DNA of 64,000 nt from NCBI RefSeq assembly GCF_006345805.1, contig NC_043024.1, positions 16,492,001-16,556,000 of the forward strand, read 5' to 3'. How positions within the stretch are numbered: position 1 is the stretch's first letter; each line of letters starts with the position of its first letter. The stretch is from Octopus sinensis (taxonomy: Eukaryota). A program made the position numbers and the translations under genes. A model generated the notes under the pieces. That model was not told where the DNA came from and searched no databases. It was given only the letters and a program-made list of their open reading frames with translations. Positions 1 through 60,500 of this stretch are shown here, piece by piece.

Positions 1-19
1 GCCCACCAGATAAGGGAGT

Positions 20-245
20 CATATATATGTATATATGTGTGTGTGTTTGTGTGTCTGTGTTTGTCTCCCCAACATCGCTTGACAACCGATGCTAGTGTGT
101 TTATGTCCCCGTAACAGTGGTTTGGCAAAAGAGACCAATATAATAAGTACTAGGCTTACAAAGAATAACTCCTGGGGTCAATTTGCTCGACTAAAGGCGG
201 TGCTCCAACATGGCCACAGACAAATGACTGAAACAAGTAAAGAGT
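20..245 (+). mobile_element. 3' half of the dominant tRNA-derived SINE (family A)
   Basis: Matches the 3' half of the full copies at 46267 and 57727, ending ...ctccaacatggccacagacaaatgactgaaacaagtaaa. Confidence 0.9.
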
Positions 246-7716: not shown

Positions 7717-8185
7717 GTCTATATGTATACACCAAGTGATTTTTGTATGCAAGCAAGATTACGAATACATATGTGCACATGTATTTGTGTGTATATTTTC
7801 GTTTTGCATTTATATATCTGTGTATGTATGCGGTCTGCGCACATCTATCTGTGTATTTTGATGTATACATGTATATTGATGGTTTAGTATGAATATAGAC
7901 TGTTGTGAAATATTTTAATATATTTTAATTTCAATTTCTATGTATTAATTGTATTAATCGAATTATATTTTCTACATAATTAATGACAATATGTATTTGA
8001 ATCAAATCTTCGATTTAAGGTTTTTTTATAATTTTATATTGAACTCATTTATTTGTTTTGTTTATCGCTCGCATATGACCGTTATTTGAAAGGACCAATC
8101 AAACAAATCCATTTTAAAGGTGCATCGTTTATACTAGTCTTGATCGAATTGTCATCTCGGTTCTATTTTAACAAAACTGTCCGAC

Positions 8186-9187
8186 GGATCTTTTCCTTTT
8201 GAACGGCACTTTTCAACACAATTTCTAGTTAACTAAACACTTTTAAACTTCGTATACTGGTAGAATGTGTTTATAAAACATCATTTTTTCTTGGCTTTAT
8301 TGAGAAAATTCTATATGTTGTAACATATTTCGTCTTTAATTTCGAGCATTTCGGCAATTTTAACCAATCGCTGACCTCCATTTAGCTAAATAACATTCTG
8401 TGCATAATGAATATGTCCCTACTTTAAGAAACAGATTGGGTTTATTTACATTTGTGAAGAAAAAAGATACCCTTCCCCCACCCCTAATCCTAAATCTAAA
8501 ATAGATTGAAATGCAATAGATCGATACTAGGGTTATAATTATGGGTGACAATTTCATACGACACCGCTACGGAAAATGAGATTTTTTTCTTGCGGTGTCA
8601 AATGAAAATGTCACCCATAATTATGGCCCCAGTATCGATCTATTTCATTTCAATCTATTTTAGATTTAGGGTTAGGTTTAGGGGTGGGGGAAGGGTATCT
8701 TCTATGGCATCCCGTCCAGATGGGGAACACATACGCCATAGAAACCGGGAAACCGGACCCATGAGTCTGGCTAGGCTTTAAAAGGGCGCATTTATTATAT
8801 ATATATATGCTTTATTTAAAAGCAGCAGAAATTTACCTAAAGCTGTTACTCGGAGTTTCACGTTCCCGTTCGTCGGACAGGATCGTTTCCTTTTGAACGG
8901 CAGTTTGTAACATAATTTCTAGGTAACTAAAAAGTTTTAAATTTCGTATACTGGTAGAATGATACAGTTAGTAATTTTATTCAGCTGAATAGACGTCATT
9001 GATTGGTTGGAATTACCAAAATAGGACAACTTTAATATGAAATTACTTCGTAAATATAAGTTTTTCTCAAAAACACTAAGAGTAAAAGATGTTTTATATG
9101 ACACATTCTACCAGTGTCTGAAGTTTGAAAGTGTTTAGATAGAAAAAACTATTTTTTAAATCTGTAGGTCAAAAGGTAAAGATCCGA
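8186..9187. mobile_element. Composite non-autonomous DNA element(s) with GGATCTTT..CCTTTTGA ends and an internal foldback
   Basis: The start motif occurs at 8186 and again at 8880, and its inverted copy tcaaaaggtaaagatcc ends at ~9186. There is an internal ~100 bp inverted repeat at 8466-8700. Confidence 0.55.
8843..8880 (-). ncRNA. Minimal hammerhead-like motif with CCGACGA core variant
   Basis: Reverse complement reads ctgt-CCGACGA-acg ggaa cgt-GAAA-ctc c gag-TA-acag. Confidence 0.5.
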
Positions 9188-15313: not shown

Positions 15314-15712
15314 GGCGCAAGAGTCGCTGTGTGGTAAGTAGCTTGCTAACCAACCACATGGTTCCGGGTTCAGTCCCACTGTGGGGCATCTTGGGCAAGT
15401 GTCTTCTGCTATAGCCCCGGGCCGACCAATGCCTTGTGAGTGGATTTAGTAGACAGAAACTGAAAGAAGCCTGTCATATATATGTATATATATATGTGTG
15501 TGTGTATGTGTTTGTGTGTCTATGTTTGTCCCCCTGGCATTGCTTGACAACCGATGCTGGTGTGTTTACGTCCCCGTCACCTAGCGGTTCGGCAAAAGAG
15601 ACTGATAGAATAAGTACTGGGCTTACAAAGAATAAATCCCAGGGTTGATTTGCTCAACTAAAGGCAGTGCTCCAGCATGGCCGCAGTCAAATGACTGAAA
15701 CAAGTAAAAGAG
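15314..15712 (+). mobile_element. SINE family A, full length
   Basis: Head with Pol III boxes, cttgggcaagt core, internal TA/TG microsatellite and a tgactgaaacaagtaaaag tail. Confidence 0.92.
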
Positions 15713-20635: not shown

Positions 20636-21250
20636 CAGTAATCCCTTGCCATGTCGTGGTTCACCCTTTGCGGTTTATTATTTAAGCTTACGTTGATTCC
20701 TCCGTGGTGTTGTTTTGCATAGGCACAGGAGTGACTGTGTGGGCAGTAGCTTGCTTACCAACCACATGGTTCCGGGTTCATTCCCACTGCGTGGCACCTT
20801 AGGCAAGTGTCTTCTACTATAGCCTCAAGCCGACCAAAGCCTTGTGAGTAGTAGATTTGGTAGATGGAAACTGAAAGAAGCCCATCGTATATATATATAT
20901 ATATATATGTATGTATATGTTTATGAGTTTGTGTTTGTTCCCCTAACATCACTTGACAACCAATGCTGGTGTGTCTACATCCCTGTAACTTAGCGCTTCG
21001 GCAAAAGAGACCGATAGAATAAGTACTAGGCTTCCAAAGAATAAGTCATGGGGTTGATTTGCTCGACTAAAGGCAGTGCTCCAGCATGGCCATAGTCAAA
21101 TGACTGAAACAAGTGAAAGAAAGAAAAGAAAAAGAGGGAAATTATAAAAATAGTAAAAAAAAATATACAGTACTGTCTCTACTTTGCAGATTTTCACCTA
21201 TTGCGATGGGTTTTGGAATGTAACACCCACGATAGTCAAGGAATTATTAT
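20636..21250. mobile_element. Tigger/pogo-like MITE with a nested SINE A (20721-21135)
   Basis: TA-cagtaatcccttg at the left and caaggaattatta-TA at the right, with a full SINE A inside. Confidence 0.7.
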
Positions 21251-21824: not shown

Positions 21825-23059
21825 ATCCTTCAGTATCATTTCACCCACACAATCTTCACTCATTATAATGAGGCGAGGCTGAAACAGAAGGTGAATGACG
21901 TTGCATCCTCACACCGACACTCTAGAGACCAATACCAAAGGATCACCCAGTTATCTTTTTTTCTCAGATACACATTCATGCACATACACACATATGCGTA
22001 TGCACACACAGAGGTTCGTAGGAGTGGCTGTGTGGTAAGTAGCTTGCTTACGAACTACATGGTTTTGGGTTCAGTCCCACTGCTTGGCACCTTCTACTAT
22101 AGCCTCAGACCAACCAAAGTCTTGTGAGTAGAGATGGTAGACAGAAACTGAAAGAAGCCCATCATGTATATATATATATGTATGTGTGTGTGTATATGTT
22201 GTGTGCCTTTGTTTGTCCCCCCAACATCGCTTGACAACCAATGCTGGTGTGTTTACGTCCCCGTAACTTAGCGGTTCGGCAAATGAGACCAATAGAATAA
22301 GTACTAGGCTTACAAAGAATAAGTCCTGTGGTCGATTTGCTCAACTAAAGGTGGTGCTCCAGCATGGCCACAGTCAAATAACTGAAACAAACAAAATAGT
22401 AAAGGGTATAAGTAATGAAGCTCACAGTATGACTTATTTGCTATTTCTATGAAGACAACATGAAAATAGTTTGTAGCATTGCATCAAAATTCAAATAGTT
22501 ATGCAAAGTTAAGATTTAGAAAAAAAAAAGGGTTGTAAAATGAGAGGAAAGAATATGTTCCAGATATTTAGTTGTTGTTTCTAGCATAATGGGTTTTCTG
22601 GTGACGGCTCGATATCTTTTTATCTTTTGTTGCAGGAGAAATCTATGCATGCATAAAACAGAATTTTTGTGTTTTGGGATATCGGGGAGGGGGCAATATA
22701 GGACGTTTTCTGAGACATTTTGAAATTTAAAAGATATTTTTCCCAAATTCGTAATCTCCATATTTTTCCATGTGGATTAAAAAAAAAATTTGCAGAAAGT
22801 GAAAAATTGTTTAATTGGGGTGGGGAGGGAAGGAAATTATAATTTTTGAAGTCACCAATAATCAAAATGGTCAGTTATCAAGTTACTTTAAGTGTTCAGT
22901 GGGTGTGTGATGTGTGATAAGTAGCTTGTTTACGAACCACATGGTTCTGGGTTCAGTCCCACTGTGTGGCACCTTGGGCAAGTGTCTTCTACTATAGCCT
23001 CAGGCTGACCAAAGCCTTGTGAGTGGATTTGGTAGACGGAAAATGAAAGAATCCTGTCG

Positions 23060-23094
<35 letters not shown>

Positions 23095-23668
23095 ATATAT
23101 GTTTGTGTGTCTGTGTTTGTTCCCCCAACCTCACTTGACAACTGATGCTGGTGTGTTTATGTCCCTGTAACTTAGCAGTTTGGCAAAACAGACCAATAGA
23201 ATAAGTATTAGGCTTACAAAGAATAAGTCCTGGGGTCGATTTGCTCGACTAAAAGCAGTGCTTCAGCATGGCCACAGTCAAATGACTGAAACAAGTCAAA
23301 GAGGAAAGAGTAGAGAGTTTCTTTTTTTTAGCAAATTTGTAATCTCTGAAATTGAAAACATAGGAATTCAAAGAAATTTTGGGAAAAAAACCCCTCTAAA
23401 AATAGCTATGTGTGGGGTGCTTACACCTGACCTCCACCAACTAACTTACTCTAATAATTGTAATTCATAGAGGTTAAATAATTTTAAACAGAATATAGTT
23501 GCCAGATTGCTAGGGAAAAAAAAAAAAACTACTAGAAAAGCAGGAAAAGAAAATGGCACGATGACTGGCAGTGAACCTGATATATTTCTTTCAGCAATTA
23601 ATATTTTATTGTTTTGCATTTGCATTTATGAATTTCAATTTTAGAGTATGTTAGTTGATGCCATGACC
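21825..23668. repeat. Right arm of the long inverted repeat, interrupted by two SINE A copies (22017-22402, 22900-23312)
   Basis: Reverse-complement match to ~11505-12840 once the insertions are removed. Confidence 0.85.
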
Positions 23669-32457: not shown

Positions 32458-32609
32458 TTGTAAGTTGTTCCAAGTCTCACCCAGAAACTTCAAGTAACAC
32501 CAAGTTTGACATTTTACTATGGGTGATACAATGTAGGGGAAAGAGACCAGAATCTGAGAAGTGAGGTTCTGTTAAATTTGTAATCTTTCAGTTTTAAAAG
32601 AGTTTTACA

Positions 32610-34570
32610 AGAATCACCTTACTGACAGCATCCCGGTACATGGCTTGCACAGCTCTCACTAACCATTCATCTATCCCTAGTTTCCTCATTGACCACCAGA
32701 TAAGGGATCGGGGGACCCTGTCAAAGGCTTTCTCCATATCAACAAAAGCCAAGTACAGAGGTTTATCTTTGGCCAGGTATTTCTCCTGCAGCTGTCTCAC
32801 CAGAAATATGGCATCAGTGGTGCTTTTCCCTGGCACAAACCAAAACTGCATCTCATCTAAACTGACTCTCTCTCTAATTAGTTGGGCTATGACCCTCTCC
32901 TTGACCTTCATTACCTGATCCAACAACTTGATACTTCTGTAATTATTTGTATCTAAAGCGTCACCTTTACCTTTGTAGCAGTTGACTATTATGCTGCTAC
33001 ACCAGTCATTGGGAATGACTCCTTCGTGTATCACCTGGTTAACTATCCTGGTGACTAGGCTATAGCTGACACTGCCAGATATTTTGAGCATCTCTGCAGT
33101 AATTCCTGATGGGCCGGGGGCTTTTCCTGTCTTCATATTCTTAATTGCTTTATCTACCAAGGTACTGTCAACTCAGATAGCTGGTCCCTCTGTTGGGTCG
33201 ACATTCGGCAGACCCTCTTTCTCCCATTCATTCTCTTTATTGAGCAACCTTTCATTGTGGCATTTCTGAACCTCTCTCTTTGCAGCCTCATTTAGTGCAA
33301 GTGAACCATCATCCATGCAGACACATTTCTCTCCTATGACATCACGATTCTCTCTCACACACTGTCTTGCAACACAAAATACCTCAAGTCTTTGGTTCCC
33401 ACAGCGCAGAACATTGGCAAATTTTTCTTATCTGCTTCCCCTCTGGCTAAATAAACCTGTCTCCTAGCTTCCCTTCTGGCATTCTCATACAATTCCCTGC
33501 TCCCACTGTTCTTCCAGTCCTTCCAAGCCTATTACTTTTCTCTAATAGCTCTGTCAACCACATTGTTCCACCACCACGTTACCTTGGGTCGAGATGGGAC
33601 TTTGCTGCATCCACAGATCTGGTCAGTAGCCTTCAGCAGGTTGTCTCAGAGAAACTTCCAGTTGTCTTCCACATTATGTGATGCTATATCCCCTTTTATT
33701 TCGTCAAAGGCTTCGAGTAATACAGCTCTAAATCTCTGTCCATTCACAGGATCTTTAAGCTTCCAGACCCTTCTCCTCCATGATGGTCGTCTTCTGGGCA
33801 TCTATTTAGCCCAGATTCTGAAGTCACTAACTACTAGTTTATGTTGTGGAGTACATTTCTTTGCCTGGGAAAGCCATCTTTCCCTTTTTTCTGGTGAGGG
33901 TGTAGTCAGTTTGGCTAGTGTGTCTGCCAGAACAGTACGTGACTAGGTGACTGGCAGGTTTCTTGAAGTTAGTATTGCAAACCATAAGATAATTTGCATC
34001 GCAGAACTCCAGCAGCCTGGTTTCCTCCTCATTGCAGGGAACCAAAACCATAACCTCCATGTATGCCATGGAAACCCCCTGCATGTTGTCCAACATTTCC
34101 ATTGAAGTCACCAGCCACATTCGTCAACAAGGTAGTTTGCAAGAGAGTGTCCTAAAATCAGTCATTCTGTCCATCCGGTAACCCTGGCTGAGGGGTATAG
34201 GCCAAGATAATGGTTGCTAACCCACGATGAAGCACTAATCTAATCTTAGGTATTCTGTCGCATACTCTGACTACCTCAATTACCTTATCAACCCATTTCT
34301 CCGCAAGAAGTATACCCATGCCCCTGACCCTGTCAATGTTTCCTGCCCAGAAAATCTTGTACCTGTTACCTTTGCCTGTGAGGAACCTAGCAGAACTTCC
34401 TCTTTACTTACTTCTTGGAGGCAGCACAAATCTACACGTCTCCTTTCAAACATCTCAACAATCTCACCAGACCTACCTTTCAATGTGCTGACGTTGAATG
34501 TGCCAACTCTGAGGGTGTGGGCCTGTGAGACCCTGGGATGGGTGACAACAGCGTCATGTACCTGAAAAGA
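32610..34570 (-). mobile_element. RTE LINE: APE endonuclease plus 5' part of RT, 3'-truncated
   Basis: VGTFNV.TL, LQE, SAYTPQ, GDFNG, GKAPGPSGITAEMLK, NYRSIKLL, STTDAIF and AFVDMEKAFDRVPR. Confidence 0.93.
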
Positions 34571-35178: not shown

Positions 35179-35278
35179 NNNNNNNNNNNNNNNNNNNNNN
35201 NNNNNNNNNNNNNNNNNNNNNNNNNNNNNNNNNNNNNNNNNNNNNNNNNNNNNNNNNNNNNNNNNNNNNNNNNNNNNN
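35179..35278. other. Assembly gap (100 N)
   Basis: Run of n characters. Confidence 0.99.
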
Positions 35279-38590: not shown

Positions 38591-39572
38591 AATATGTGTA
38601 TACATATGTATGTATGAAATATATACCACATATATATCTAGTATGTATTTCATACATATACACACACACACATATATATACATATACATGCATACATATA
38701 TATATATACATACATTTTTTTATGCACCTTTTTCAAGCCTAGCCAGGCACATGGGCCCAGTTGCCTGGTTTCTATGGTGCATGTGTTCCCCCCAGCTGGA
38801 CGGGACGCCAGTCCATCACGGCATTACTCAAGAAACAAGAAGAAAGAGTGAGAGAAAGTTGGGGCAAAAGAGTACAGCAGGGATCACCACCACCCCCTGC
38901 CAGAGCCTCGTGGAGCTTTAAGTGTTTTCGCTCAATAAACACACACAATGCTCAGTCTGGAATCAAAACTGCGATCCTTCGACCGCGAGTCCGCTGCCCT
39001 AACCACTGGGCCATTGCACCTCCATATAATACATATACATACGGAAACACACACATATATATATATAAATTGTTAAAGAGGACAACAAACATTAAGGCAA
39101 GGCAAACATCTCAAGTCATATGCATTATTATTATTATTATTGGAAAAAATGTCCAGCTGTTTCTGGGACATCTCAGAGTATGGGATATTCCGTCATTGGA
39201 GACAAATAGGGAAAATGAAAAGGCTGTAGGTTAATGAAATGATGACATAGCAGACAGGAGTAAAGGAATAAGGAGATGAAGAAAGAGAAGAAAAGGGAAG
39301 AAAAAAACTTCCTGATTGTGTAGAAGTAAGTCTGTAGGTGTAATCCTGCGTAAATCCATGTAGGTTAAAGTCCTTTAACCTACATGGATTTACACCGTTT
39401 GAAAACAGCTATCAAAAAGCTAAAAACTCCTTTTTTTCAAATATATTATACCCTACCAAGAACCTTTTTTTTATTTAACTGACCGTCCAATAACGCAGTA
39501 CTTGCACCACGTCCTTGCGTTGTTGTTTTTCTTGTTTGTTCTTGTTTGGATTGACTATATATATACATACAT

Positions 39573-39606
<34 letters not shown>

Positions 39607-39608
<2 letters not shown>

Positions 39609-39738
39609 TTATTTTATAGAAGGAGCTTCTACAGGACTAGAACTGTTTCATTCAAAAGAAATCATCAGGAAGCTTCCTGATGATTTCTTTTGAATGAAAC
39701 AGTTCTAGTCCTGTAGAAGCTCCTTCTATAAAATAAAT
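39607..39738. repeat. Perfect 132 bp palindrome centred on AAGCTT
   Basis: Arms checked base by base; there is no spacer. Confidence 0.95.
39671..39721 (+). ncRNA. Type I hammerhead ribozyme motif, with an identical copy on the minus strand
   Basis: agcttc-CTGATGA-tttc tttt gaat-GAAA-cag ttctagtc ctg-TA-gaagct. The first pair of stem II is a T.T mismatch. Confidence 0.65.
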
Positions 39739-39803
39739 TAATTTACTCTGCTATGTATTGAGTACCTTATTTACTGTGCTTAACCCCGACTCAACCCGGA
39801 ACC

Positions 39804-39838
<35 letters not shown>

Positions 39839-40539
39839 ATGTATGTATGTATGTATATGACACACACCTTTATCTTCCTCTTTCCCTCCCATTACCTACA
39901 TTCATCTTTCCTTTCTTCTCCATACCACTTTACCCATCCATGTACAACTTGGGGTAACTTCAACTAGCTCTGGACCTAACAAACTATCCACCTCATGCTG
40001 GCATGGCATATGAACTGATTCATTCCATCACTGGGTCCACATACTCAAACCATCCTATCATCATTATCACACTGTGCCCTCCCCTCTCCTTCACACTAAA
40101 CCATGATATCACTCTTGTCCTCCTCCTCCTCCTCTGACACTTCTACTCCCACCCCAACTCTGTTGTCTCTCTCTTACTATCTCCTCATAATTCATCCCTT
40201 TTCTATTATGGAATGCTCTCTTTTGCTTTGCAAATTACTAAGTAACCCCAACAGTGCTGGTGCCACGAAAAGTATTTGGTACGCTTTATGTTTTTGCTAT
40301 TCAATGCACACAGCAACAATACAGGACTTGAGGGGAATCGTTAGTCTTACTAATGGCAATCACTATAGGGATAGTGCCACAAAAAATGCCCCCAGTTAAC
40401 TTTATAAAGCGGTGAGGGCAATGAAGGGCATCCAGCCATAGAGACCCTGCCGAAAACAAGACTTTAGAGGAAAACATGGTTCTCTGACCTGTTCTATCAA
40501 CCCATCCTACTCATGCCAACATGGAAAGGGTAAACTCTA

Positions 40540-46268: not shown

Positions 46269-46683
46269 CGCAGGAGTGGCTGTGTGGTAAGTAGCTTGTT
46301 TACCAACCACATGGTTCTGGGTTCAGTCCCACTGCGTGGCACCTTGGGCAAGTATCTTCTACTATAGCCTCGGCCCGACCAAAGCCTTGTGAGTGGATTT
46401 GGTAGACGGAAACTGAAAGAAGCCCGTCGTATATATGTGTATATATATATGTATGTGTATGTTTGTGTGTCTGTGTTTGTCCCCCTAGCATTGCTTGACA
46501 ACCGATGCTTGTGTGTTTATGTCCCCGTTACTTAGCGGTTCGGCAAAAGAGACCGATAGAATAAGTACTGGGCTTCCAAAAAACTAAGTCCCGGGGTCGA
46601 GTTGCTCGATTAAAAGGCAGTGCTCCAGCATGGCTGCAGTCAAATGACTGAAACAAGTAAAAGAGTAAAAAGAGTAAAAGAGT
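46267..46683 (+). mobile_element. SINE family A, full length, near-consensus
   Basis: ggcgcaggagTGGCTGTGTGG..GGTTCAGTCCC head with a (gagtaaaa)n tail. Confidence 0.95.
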
Positions 46684-48156: not shown

Positions 48157-49144
48157 TCAATATCTTGTTGCTCCTCCTTTGGCAGCAATGACAGCTGCTA
48201 CGCAGGTCGGCATGCTGTCTATGAGTGCCTGCAGGTACTGTGCAGGGATGGCCCTCCATGCAGCAAGAAGTGCCCCAAACAGCTCGTGTCGGTTCCTGTA
48301 TTGCTGCACATTCAAATCTCTACCCAATCGACTCCAGAGGTTCTCAATAGGGTTCAGGTCAGGTGACTGGCCAGGCCAGTCCATGATCGTCACCCCATGG
48401 TCCTTGAAAAAACCGGTTGTGAGCTTGGCTGTGTGGGGAGGCGCGTTGTTCTGCTGGAGCACGTACTCCTCGCCACCAAAGAGGTATCCCGCAGAGGGTA
48501 GGGCAGCATTCTGTACTATCTCAACGTACTTTGCTGCGTTGATGTTGCCTTCGACGGCATAGAGCCGCCCAACACCACTGTAGCTGAACGCCCCTCACAC
48601 CATCAGACCACCCCCACCATGCTTCATGGTGGGAGCAATGCAGTCTTTGTTGAAGCGCTCACCCCTGCAGCGTCGCACATGGACAGGCTTGTCACTGACG
48701 AGACTGAATCGCGACTCGTCAGTGAACATCACTGTCTGCCACTGCTGCACGGTCCATGTCTTGTGGGCACGGGCCCAGAGCAGCCACCTCTTCCGGTTTT
48801 GGGCTGTAAGGAGCGGCTTCCAGTAATCTGGTCTTGACGGTGGTTGTAGACAACTGCTTCCCTGTCATCTTTTGCATCTCCTCCGCCAGTTGCCGGCTCG
48901 TTGCCCTTCGGTTGTACAGTGACTTTCGGATCAGCATCCGGTCCTTCTGCTGGGTCGTCAGCCTCTTCCGTCCCCTACCCTTTTTGTCAGCTGCTGATCT
49001 GGTTTCCTCGTATTTCTTAAATAAGCACTGAATTGTGCGCCTGGCTACACCAAGTTTTCTGGCTATTGCAGCCTCTGACAGCTTCCCACGCCACGAGAGA
49101 GCCTCGTACCGTCTCTCCAAGGTCATGCGAGGTCCTGAGCCCAT
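48157..49144 (-). pseudogene. Tc1 transposase, frameshifted
   Basis: HTH (IARKLGVARRTI), GRGRKR, FTDESRF, LQQNNAPPH (second D mutated to N), DWPGQSPDLNPIENLW and GGATRY*. Confidence 0.92.
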
Positions 49145-54684: not shown

Positions 54685-54897
54685 TTTTTTTCTTTTATTT
54701 GTTTCAGTCATTTGACTGTGGCCATGCTGGAGCACCACCTGTAGTTGAGCAAATCAACCCCAGGACTTATTCTTTGTAAGCCTAGTACTTATTCTATCGG
54801 TCACTCTTGCCGAACTGCAAAGTGGCGGGGACATAAACACACCAGCATCAGTTGTCAAGCGATGTTGGGGGGACAAACATAGACACACATGCACAAA

Positions 54898-54943
<46 letters not shown>

Positions 54944-57726: not shown

Positions 57727-58131
57727 GGCGCAGGAGTGGCTGTGTGGTAAGTAGCTTGCTTACCAACCACATGGTTCCGGGTTCAGTCCCACTGCATAGC
57801 ACCTTGGGCAAGTGTCTTCTACTATAGCCTCGGGCCGACCAAAGCCTTGTGAGTGGATCTGGTAGACGGAAACTGAAAGAAGCCTGTCGTATATATGTAT
57901 ATATATATGCGTGTGTGTGTTTGTGTGTCTGTGTTTGTCCCCCTAGCATTGCTTGACAACCGATGCCGGTGTGTTTATGTCCCCATTACTTAGCGGTTCG
58001 GCAAAAGAGACCGATAGAATAAGTACTGGGCTTACAAAAGAATAAGTCCCAAGGTCGAGTTGCTCGATTAAAAAGGTGGTGCTCCAGCATGGCCGCAGTC
58101 AAATGACTGAAACAAGTAAAAGAGTAAAGAG
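57727..58131 (+). mobile_element. SINE family A, full length
   Basis: Near-identical to 46267-46683. Confidence 0.95.
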
Positions 58132-58625: not shown

Positions 58626-60500
58626 AGATGGTACTCTTAGCGCTCCACTAGCACAGATGCCAGTCATCGAATTTGATTTCGACTTCGATTTTCACTTGCC
58701 TCAACAGGTCTTCGCAAGCAGAGTTTAGTGCCCAATGAAGGAAAGGTATGCATAAGTGGACTGGTTACACCTCGGGCATAGGCCATGAGATTATGGTCTC
58801 ACTTGGCTTGCCAAGTCTTCTCAAGCACAGCATATTTCCAAAGGTCCTGGTCACTAGTCATTGCCTCACTGAGGCCAAATGTTTGAAGGTCATGCTTCAC
58901 CACCTCATCCCAGGCCTTCCTGGGTCTATCTCTTCCACAGGTTCCCTCAACTGCTACGATGTGGAACTTTTTCACACAGCTATCCACATCCACTTTCGCC
59001 ACATGACCATACCAGCACAGCTGTCTCTCTTGCACACCACATCTGATGCTTCTTAGGTCTAACATTCTCTCAAGGTACTTACACTCTGTTGTGTATGCAC
59101 ACTGACATTACACATCCATCGGAGCATACTGGCTTCATTCCTTGTTAGTTTAAGCTTGTCCTCAGAAGTCACGGCCCATGTTTCACTGCCATGTAGCATG
59201 GCTGTTCGTACACCTGCATCGTACAGTCTACCTTTTACTCTGAGCAAGAGGCCCTTTGTCACCAGCAGAGGTAAGAGCTCTCTGAACTTAGCCCAGGCTA
59301 TTCTTATTCTAGCAGCTACACTTTCAGCGCACCATCCCCTGCTACTGACTTGGTCACCTAGGTAACGGAAGCTATCAAGTACTTCTAGTTTTCCTCCCTG
59401 GAATGTGGTGAAAGTTGTTCTCTGCGCATTTTCAGAGTTTATTGCTCCCGAGCATCTGCCACATACAAAAACTATCTTCCCAGTTAGCCATCCTTTGATA
59501 TTGCTTCACCTCTTATGTGTCCATAGCTTTCACTGGGTACACCTTATGGAGTTTCTACCTACGCCTTTTCTACAGATCGAGCAGGGCCATCTACCTGAAG
59601 GGATTTGTGGCTTGCCTGCCTTCCTACTTATTAGGACTTTGGTTTTAGCTAGGTTGACTCTAAGGCCCTTTGATTCTAATCCTTGTTTCCACACTTGAAA
59701 CTTCTCCTCTAGTTCTGATAGTGACTCAGCAATTAGAGCAAGGTCATCAGCATAGAGGAGCTCCCAGGGGCATCTTGTCTTGAATTCCTCTTTTATTGCC
59801 TGGAGGACTATGATAAATAGGATGGTGCTGAGGACTGATCCTTGGTGGACCCCTACCTCTACCTGGAATTCTTCACTGTACTCGTTGCCAACCCTCACCT
59901 TACTAACAGCATCCCTGTACATGGCACGCACAGCTCTCACTTTATATTTGGCGAGGTATTTCTCCTGCAGCTGTCTTACCAGAAATATAGCATCAGTGGT
60001 ACTTTTCCCTGGCACGAACCCGAACTGCAACTCATCTAGACTGACTCTCTCCCTAATTAGTTGGGCTATGACCCTCTCCGTAACCTTCATTACCTGATCT
60101 AACAACTTGATACTTCTGTAATTATTTGGATCTAAAGCGTCACCTTTACCTTTGTAGCAGTTGACTATTATGCTGCTACACTAGTCATTGGGTATGACTC
60201 CTTCATGCATCACCTGGTTAACTATATGGGTGACTAGGCTATAGCTGACACCGCCAGATATTTTGAGCATCTCTGCAGTGATTCCTGATGGGCTGGGGGC
60301 TTTCCCTGTCTTCATACCCTTAATTGATTTATCTACCAAGGTACTGTCAACTCAGATAGATGGTCCCACTGTTGGGTCGACATTCGGCAGACTCACTTTC
60401 TCCCATTCGTTTTCTTTATTGAGCAACCTTTCATAGTGGCATTTCTGAACCTCTCTCTTTGCAGCCTCATTTAGTGCAAGAGAACTATCATCCATGCGGA
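58626..60500 (-). mobile_element. RTE LINE RT and C-terminus, same family as 32610-34570
   Basis: GVHQGSVLS, LLYADDL, LHGSETW and GRPRKAW-like motifs. An internal deletion at ~59940 removes the AFVD.EKAFD block. Confidence 0.93.

What the first reader, a model, noticed from the sequence alone, without database searches (positions are those of the whole stretch)
39607..39738. Perfect 132 bp palindrome encoding the same hammerhead on both strands
Seen: a zero-spacer, zero-mismatch palindrome whose centre (AAGCTT) forms the 5' strand of stem I of a type I hammerhead with a GUA site, so both strands carry the motif. Perfect palindromes this long are normally unstable, implying recent origin or arm conversion. 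Inference: the fold-back point sits at the ribozyme, suggesting self-priming of a Penelope-like cDNA or RNA. The full hairpin would compete with the ribozyme fold, and stem II opens with a T.T mismatch.
Basis: partly seen in the sequence, partly recalled or inferred. Interest (0 to 1): 0.7.

Follow-up and report, generated by a model that had tools for sequence, protein, structure and literature searches.

The report
Mirror-image stub of Hydra-type Penelope retroelement
This perfect DNA palindrome is one of about 500 same-centred stubs of an abundant Penelope-like jumping gene, a known insertion layout, and its mirror point likely marks the very first base of the element's RNA rather than the place where the ribozyme would cut.

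Summary
The 132-bp palindrome and the hammerhead motif on both strands are as described. It is part of a 200-bp insertion (39607-39806) in a TA repeat: two head-to-head stubs of a Hydra-type Penelope-like element, one with a 68-bp tail. The genome holds 497 sites with this exact centre and whole RT+GIY-YIG parents. Inverted arms, junction palindromes and self-priming are already in print for these elements, and this scan noted the same layout in at least 29 genomes and elsewhere in this one. Added here: 5' ends pile at the first base of stem I (34 of 88 copies; none at the cleavage site), 29 nt past a TATA-like box, often with an extra non-native G. That points to the RNA's 5' end. Both arms match in every subfamily tested, and the tail-less arm is often the longer, which favours two cDNAs joined at the self-complementary AGCT over one folded-back strand. 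No RNA data tested this; cleavage is untested and predicted blocked at this locus. Verdict: real, new member of a known kind, with a testable mechanistic clue.

The parts
39607..39806 (.). Whole insertion, 200 bp: inverted stub plus direct stub with tail
   Evidence: Same two ends in the 30 loci inspected of the 40 best copies; left end varies by a few bases within A/T-rich sequence
39607..39674 (-). Inverted arm: pLTR positions -2 to +66, no tail
   Evidence: 68 nt, 100% to a natural parent pLTR (L242)
39671..39806 (+). Direct arm: pLTR positions -2 to +134, with tail
   Evidence: 97% to both pLTRs of parent L242
39671..39674 (.). Self-complementary AGCT shared by both arms; native to the parent; its A is the inferred first base of the RNA
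   Evidence: Uninverted copies read ...AG|CTTCC; 5' ends pile here; extra G upstream in joined copies
39671..39721 (+). Type I hammerhead motif; predicted cut after 39715; U.U at the base of stem II; activity untested
   Evidence: Across 164 copies the recurrent subfamily differences lie at N7 and loop II
39624..39674 (-). Mirror hammerhead motif; predicted cut after 39630 on the - strand
   Evidence: Follows from the perfect palindrome
39739..39806 (+). One-sided 68-bp tail; in parents it runs on into the leader and the ORF start about 46 nt further
   Evidence: 54 sites continue into the ORF leader; ORF start seen
39560..39606 (.). Left target microsatellite, (CA)n(TA)n
   Evidence: Sequence
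39807..39858 (.). Right target microsatellite, (TA)n
   Evidence: the tail is followed by three or more TA units in 85 of 88 copies

Best explanation
The palindrome is two head-to-head stubs of the hammerhead-bearing pLTR of a young, abundant Hydra-type Penelope-like retroelement, likely made at insertion as two short cDNAs that each ran to the 5' end of the element's RNA and were then joined through the self-complementary AGCT. Shown: membership of the family, the anatomy, the TA target, matched arms, the pile-up of ends at the first base of stem I, and an extra non-native G there. Inferred: the RT-GIY-YIG protein cuts both strands of a (TA)n site; one end primes at the tail end (+134), the other near +66; both copy the 5' leader of the mRNA (start, hammerhead, tail, then ORF) to its first base, 29 nt past a TATA-like box; the two 3' ends ...AAGCT anneal over 4 bp and are filled in. 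The stub lacks the box and the ORF, so it is most likely a dead by-product; a read-through RNA would be one long hairpin with the ribozyme fold shut out.
For: Family: 5,474 exact hits of a 29-mer of the motif, 1,593 of the tail, 497 exact centres; parents pLTR-ORF-pLTR in L242, with an added inverted pLTR in L246. Built anew each time: both arms share N7 in 50 of 50 listed sites (24 T/T, 26 A/A, hand count) and loop II in 28 of 28 pairs, four types. End point: tail-bearing arm ends at -3..+2 in 34 of 88 position-sampled copies, none at -10..-4, none at +41..+45; 8 of 15 truncated copies with no inverted arm end at -1..+5; 6 of 30 ORF-leader loci are head-to-tail joins whose second unit starts at -2/-1. 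Template end: base before AGCTTCC is G in 30 of 49 non-native joins, 17 of 23 after removing those explained by the other arm or duplicated (hand count), against 13 of 41 at internal ends (Fisher P 0.006 and 0.002); untemplated G at full-length 5' ends is ascribed to copying the cap (PMC3287187, passages). TATAAA or CATAAA starts at -31 in 42 of 44 uninverted upstreams while the bases between differ. Two primers: tail-less arm longer in 25, shorter in 16, equal in 16 of 57; the PAc protein cuts and extends both strands from two internal starts that bound the tail, and its ribozyme is dispensable in vitro (PMC11167929, main text).
Against: No RNA start was measured. The box reads CATAAA in 5 of 44 rows, and rows were picked by a pattern covering it, so only its spacing is informative. 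Drosophila Penelope has a TATA-less internal promoter and its intron ends at helix I (PMC2377424 passages; PMC4209133). The G count is by hand, involves judging which bases the other arm explains, the internal-end control was not filtered the same way, and an RT can add C at any template end, capped or not (recalled). Later deletion of palindrome centres could also give arms of unequal reach; arm divergence did not differ between perfect (11) and asymmetric (30) joins, P 0.85, but over only 39 nt. Six inverted arms start at +44..+51, just past the cut site, near the detection limit. The sample is the first 90 exact tail hits on one contig.
Confidence: 0.6

Rival explanations
1. One cDNA folds back on itself at stem I and copies itself.
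For: PMC3846280 reads junction palindromes as self-priming (passages). In 16 of 57 adjacent inversions the tail-bearing arm is the longer, and a recurrent join has a 4-nt CTTC/GAAG overlap that a snap-back could use.
Against: A tail-primed fold-back cannot give a longer tail-less arm, seen in 25 of 57. The perfect centre would need a 1-bp stem with a 2-nt loop, against 4 bp between two strands (sequence). Some loci have both arms ending in the extra G with 1-4 nt between.
Confidence: 0.17
2. The 200-bp palindrome is itself a non-autonomous element copied whole from master copies.
For: 40 best copies are 98-100% identical over 189-194 of 194 bases; 497 share one centre.
Against: The exact centre recurs in four sequence types with matched arms; centres form a spread, 313 more sites having shorter centres; left ends vary; a whole-unit RNA folds at -115 kcal/mol and lacks the upstream box.
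Confidence: 0.08
3. The end point is a 3' splice site or a structural stop of the RT, not the RNA start.
For: Most subfamilies read pyrimidine-rich ...YAG|C there; in D. virilis the intron ends at helix I (PMC4209133).
Against: Joined copies keep the AG and show no recurring exon upstream; one subfamily has CAAG; template jumps and the extra G fit a true end.
Confidence: 0.12
4. Assembly artefact at this locus.
For: No contig or read bridged this locus flank to flank.
Against: Fixed anatomy at hundreds of sites, one-sided tail, subfamily-matched arms, and head-to-head joins in contigs and raw reads of other runs.
Confidence: 0.03

Closest known systems
Insertions of endonuclease-bearing Penelope-like elements with an inverted 5'-truncated copy and one-sided tail (PMC8557442 Fig. 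2 legend; PMC3846280; passages)
   Same: Head-to-head inverted copy, palindrome at the junction, tail on one arm, hammerhead in the pLTR, TATA-like box in the pLTR
   Different: Here the whole insertion is two stubs; the tail is 68 bp rather than 30-40; one centre recurs 497 times
Hydra clade of PLEs (PMC8557442 section 11; Hydra-1_Obim in its supplement)
   Same: C-terminal endonuclease, DKT, CxCx5C linker, CxxC and CxH, RW[KR], no GxKF/Y, (TA)n targets, hammerhead
   Different: A different family: its N-terminus and hammerhead strings had 0 hits in that supplement; unit about 4.6 kb with a microsatellite-rich 3' region against under 3 kb; RWR for RWK
PAc Poseidon element in vitro (PMC11167929, main text)
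   Same: Two internal start points bounding the tail; AT-rich target; ends not at the ribozyme cut site
   Different: Other clade; inverted products and the RNA 5' end were not addressed in the text read
Minimal hammerheads of metazoan PLEs (PMC4209133, parts 1-2 of 4) and non-LTR retrozymes (10.64898/2026.07.22.740005, part 1 of 5)
   Same: Type I motif in pLTRs; pairs on opposite strands 100-700 bp apart were noted in Schistosoma
   Different: 4-bp stem III with 8-nt loop, U.U in place of G10.1-C11.1; head-to-head, not tandem arrays

Membership tests
EN+ Penelope-like element | Single ORF with RT and C-terminal GIY-YIG endonuclease linked to this sequence | tested here: met
   YRDD RT and YIG-type domain upstream of the motif in L061, L206, L207, L209, L210; Atlas neighbours at 0.95-0.98 carry HTH_animal, RVT_1, GIY-YIG; Pfam itself gave no passing family
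EN+ Penelope-like element | pLTR-ORF-pLTR partial tandem | tested here: met
   L241, L242, L244, L245, L246
EN+ Penelope-like element | Inverted 5'-truncated copy and one-sided tail | tested here: met
   57 of 88 copies have an adjacent inverted arm, 55 of them ending at +52..+68
EN+ Penelope-like element | Target-site duplication | tested here: inconclusive
   Both flanks are TA runs
Hydra clade | DKT, CxCx5C, CxxC, CxH, RWK, no GxKF/Y | tested here: met
   on natural copies L206 and L244; RWR in place of RWK
Hydra clade | Insertion into (TA)n | tested here: met
   85 of 88
Hydra clade | Length generally under 3 kb | tested here: not met
   About 4.6 kb between pLTR starts in L242; a tendency in the paper, not a strict criterion
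Hydra clade | Placement in an RT phylogeny | not tested
   No tree built; likeness to the Hydra alignment judged by eye
Type I hammerhead ribozyme | Core CUGANGA, GAAA, NUH with three stems | tested here: met
   fold -7.3 against MFE -7.6 kcal/mol for the 51-nt RNA
Type I hammerhead ribozyme | G10.1-C11.1 pair | tested here: not met
   U in 164 of 164 and U in 163 of 164 copies
Type I hammerhead ribozyme | Self-cleavage | not testable with these tools
   Stem I probability about 0.99 in 51 nt, 0.09 in 68 nt, 0.01 in 136 nt, 0 in the full hairpin
Non-LTR retrozyme | Head-to-tail tandem units each with a hammerhead | tested here: not met
   This locus is a single head-to-head pair

The most novel reading that the evidence does not exclude
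These palindromes are the genomic footprint of twin strong-stop reverse transcription: a Penelope-like enzyme primes both target ends on the 5' leader of its capped mRNA, copies to the cap, and joins the two cDNAs. The extra G then maps the transcription start to the first base of hammerhead stem I, and some 1,600 tail-bearing copies give a ready data set for how inverted pLTRs arise.
Probability: 0.5. Interest if true: 0.5.

Novelty: new member of a known kind. Interest (0 to 1): 0.33.

Why it matters
As a locus it is an ordinary dead stub. As a family it bears on an open question, how Penelope-like elements make their inverted repeats (called undefined in PMC8557442): it predicts the RNA start to the base, separates the mirror point from ribozyme cleavage, and favours two primers over self-priming. 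All three are cheap to test.

Tried and rejected
Rfam: no hammerhead at gathering score or to E=10; only hairpin-driven miRNA-type hits below threshold. Pfam missed the endonuclease and gave one sub-threshold unrelated hit for the ORF. Sequencing runs: no RNA holder listed on record, so expression and the RNA start were not tested; two runs guessed to be RNA are contigs and cannot show starts. Raw DNA runs gave only 8 and 18 reads after the tool's filter. Locus-level bridging failed at the microsatellites. A search for other families with an AGCT-centred pair had the spacing wrong by one base per side, could not match even this family, found 0 and says nothing; other families were not examined. 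Cleavage site as mirror point: rejected, 43 nt away and 0 of 88 tail-bearing arms end there. No other piece of the parent lies in the window. Rows dropped: L141 and L155 as duplicates of L140 and L154, and one of two anchors in L128 (90 loci to 88). Paper searches showed no paper placing PLE inversion centres at the RNA 5' end or reporting an extra G in PLE insertions; the library lacks most subscription journals, and supplements were seen only for PMC8557442.

Full report
Observation. The palindrome 39607-39738 is perfect over 132 bp, centre 39672/39673, and has no rival in the window apart from TA runs. Rfam does not recognise it. Positions below are counted from 39673 = 0, so the motif's stem I starts at -2 and the cut falls between +42 and +43.

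What it belongs to. A search of the own genome gave 628 candidates; the 40 scored match 189-194 of 194 bases at 98-100%. In the 30 inspected, the unit is 200 bp: palindrome plus 68-bp tail, between TA runs. Exact counts: 5,474 hits of a 29-mer of the motif, 1,593 of the tail, 497 sites with this centre, 313 with shorter centres, 54 where the tail runs on. [quoted passage not shown] Whole pLTR-ORF-pLTR copies exist, one with an extra inverted pLTR. The window's arms match such a pLTR at 97-100% and nothing else of the parent is in the window. Motifs DKT, CxCx5C, CxxC, CxH, RWR and no GxKF/Y, with TA targets in 85 of 88, fit the Hydra clade as defined in PMC8557442 section 11; the family is not the Hydra-1_Obim of its supplement. 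No tree was built.

Made anew at each site. The two arms share N7 in 50 of 50 listed exact-centre sites, 24 T/T and 26 A/A (hand count), and loop II in 28 of 28 pairs; 11 perfect centres fall in four sequence types. So the same centre arose repeatedly from different parents, or arms were homogenised; a single master palindrome does not fit.

Where the ends lie. I took the first 90 exact tail hits on contig C1 (of 1,593 genome-wide), 88 after duplicates. The tail-bearing arm ends at -3..+2 in 34 (-3 arises where a reference has A there), beyond the -160 limit of the references in 14, and never at +41..+45. 57 have an adjacent inverted arm: tail-bearing arm longer in 16, shorter in 25, equal in 16. 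Of 15 truncated copies with no inverted arm within 1 kb, 8 end at -1..+5. Among 30 loci that include the ORF leader, 6 are head-to-tail joins in which a variable piece of the 5' region is followed by a unit starting at -2 or -1. The point is therefore a property of the template, not of folding back.

Why there. In uninverted copies TATAAA (CATAAA in 5) starts at -31 in 42 of 44 rows while the intervening bases differ by subfamily (rows were picked by a pattern over that box). Native bases at -3 are T, A or C. In non-native joins the base before AGCTTCC is G in 30 of the 49 among 100 listed of 613 hits, and in 17 of 23 once bases explained by the other arm and duplicates are removed (hand count; similar); at internal ends it is 13 of 41 (Fisher P 0.006 and 0.002). 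For L1-mobilised elements an untemplated G at full-length 5' ends is ascribed to copying the cap (PMC3287187, passages). I infer that -2 is the first base of the RNA. This was not measured: no RNA holder was listed.

Mechanism. PAc, the one PLE protein studied whole in vitro, cuts and extends both target strands, starts internally at two sites that bound the tail, and does not need its ribozyme (PMC11167929, main text). Applied here: two cDNAs, from +134 and about +66, run to -2; both end ...AAGCT and anneal over 4 bp, giving the perfect centre; other joins use other short overlaps. A single fold-back cannot make a longer tail-less arm. Later central deletion could, but asymmetric joins are not more diverged than perfect ones (0.83 against 0.73 changes per 39 nt, P 0.85, low power).

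The ribozyme. Across 164 copies recurrent differences are confined to N7 and loop II, as expected of a constrained core, though the family is young; U.U at 10.1-11.1 is family-wide and departs from the G-C pair stressed in PMC4209133. Stem I is favoured in a 51-nt RNA, is displaced by a downstream hairpin in longer RNA, and is absent in a read-through of this locus. Activity is untested.

Artefact check. Head-to-head joins stand in contigs of other runs and in 7 raw reads of X21; X1 may be the assembly's own source and is not counted as independent. This locus was not bridged.

Prior knowledge. Inverted truncated copies with a tail (PMC8557442, passages; PMC8969392, passages), junction palindromes read as self-priming and a TATA/Inr in the pLTR (PMC3846280, passages), and opposite-strand hammerhead pairs (PMC4209133) are in print. 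This scan has 184 notes of the kind in at least 29 genomes, several reaching a two-primer reading and one noting breaks at stem I, and 150 fitting notes in this genome; a look-up for the cap and TATA wording found none. My reading was written down before those look-ups (note). These notes are not independent support.

Verdict. Real; a new member of a known kind; interest 0.33, for the extra-G and spacing evidence that pins the mirror point to the probable RNA start.

Noticed in passing
G000:C16:42874727-42877436 and C9:87420551-87422233: Arrays of the family's 5' leader, ten units at about 245-bp spacing arranged six one way and four the other, and a four-unit cluster; retrozyme-like tandem products of the same element.
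   Followed up: no
L211, L212, L214, L218, L224, L225: Head-to-tail chimeras: a variable piece of the ORF start followed by a new unit from -2/-1, consistent with template jumps at the RNA end.
   Followed up: partly
window 39714-39728: A hairpin (UAGAAG/CUUCUA region) just downstream is predicted to hide the cut site and the 3' strand of stem I even in the normal leader RNA, a possible off-switch.
   Followed up: partly
PMC8557442 supplement, record before Hydra-1_Obim: That published Hydra element also shows a TATA-like run some 30 nt before its hammerhead stem I; read by eye from one passage.
   Followed up: no
L061:2100-5400 and 7896-8822: A LINE with AP-endonuclease and RT pieces sits inside the 3' region of a parent copy; L061 and L062 are 99.8% identical over 9 kb, likely one locus assembled twice.
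   Followed up: no
window 48160-49144 (-), 32597-33172 (-), 59062-60180 (-): A Tc1/mariner-like transposase remnant and two RTE-like LINE fragments, named by eye from translations.
   Followed up: no
window 12-244, 15479-15711, 20888-21120, 22166-22398, 23070-23302, 46430-46662, 54686-54933, 57888-58120: A dispersed SINE-like family of about 230 bp beside TA runs.
   Followed up: no
window 35179-35278: A 100-base assembly gap, 4.3 kb from the palindrome.
   Followed up: no
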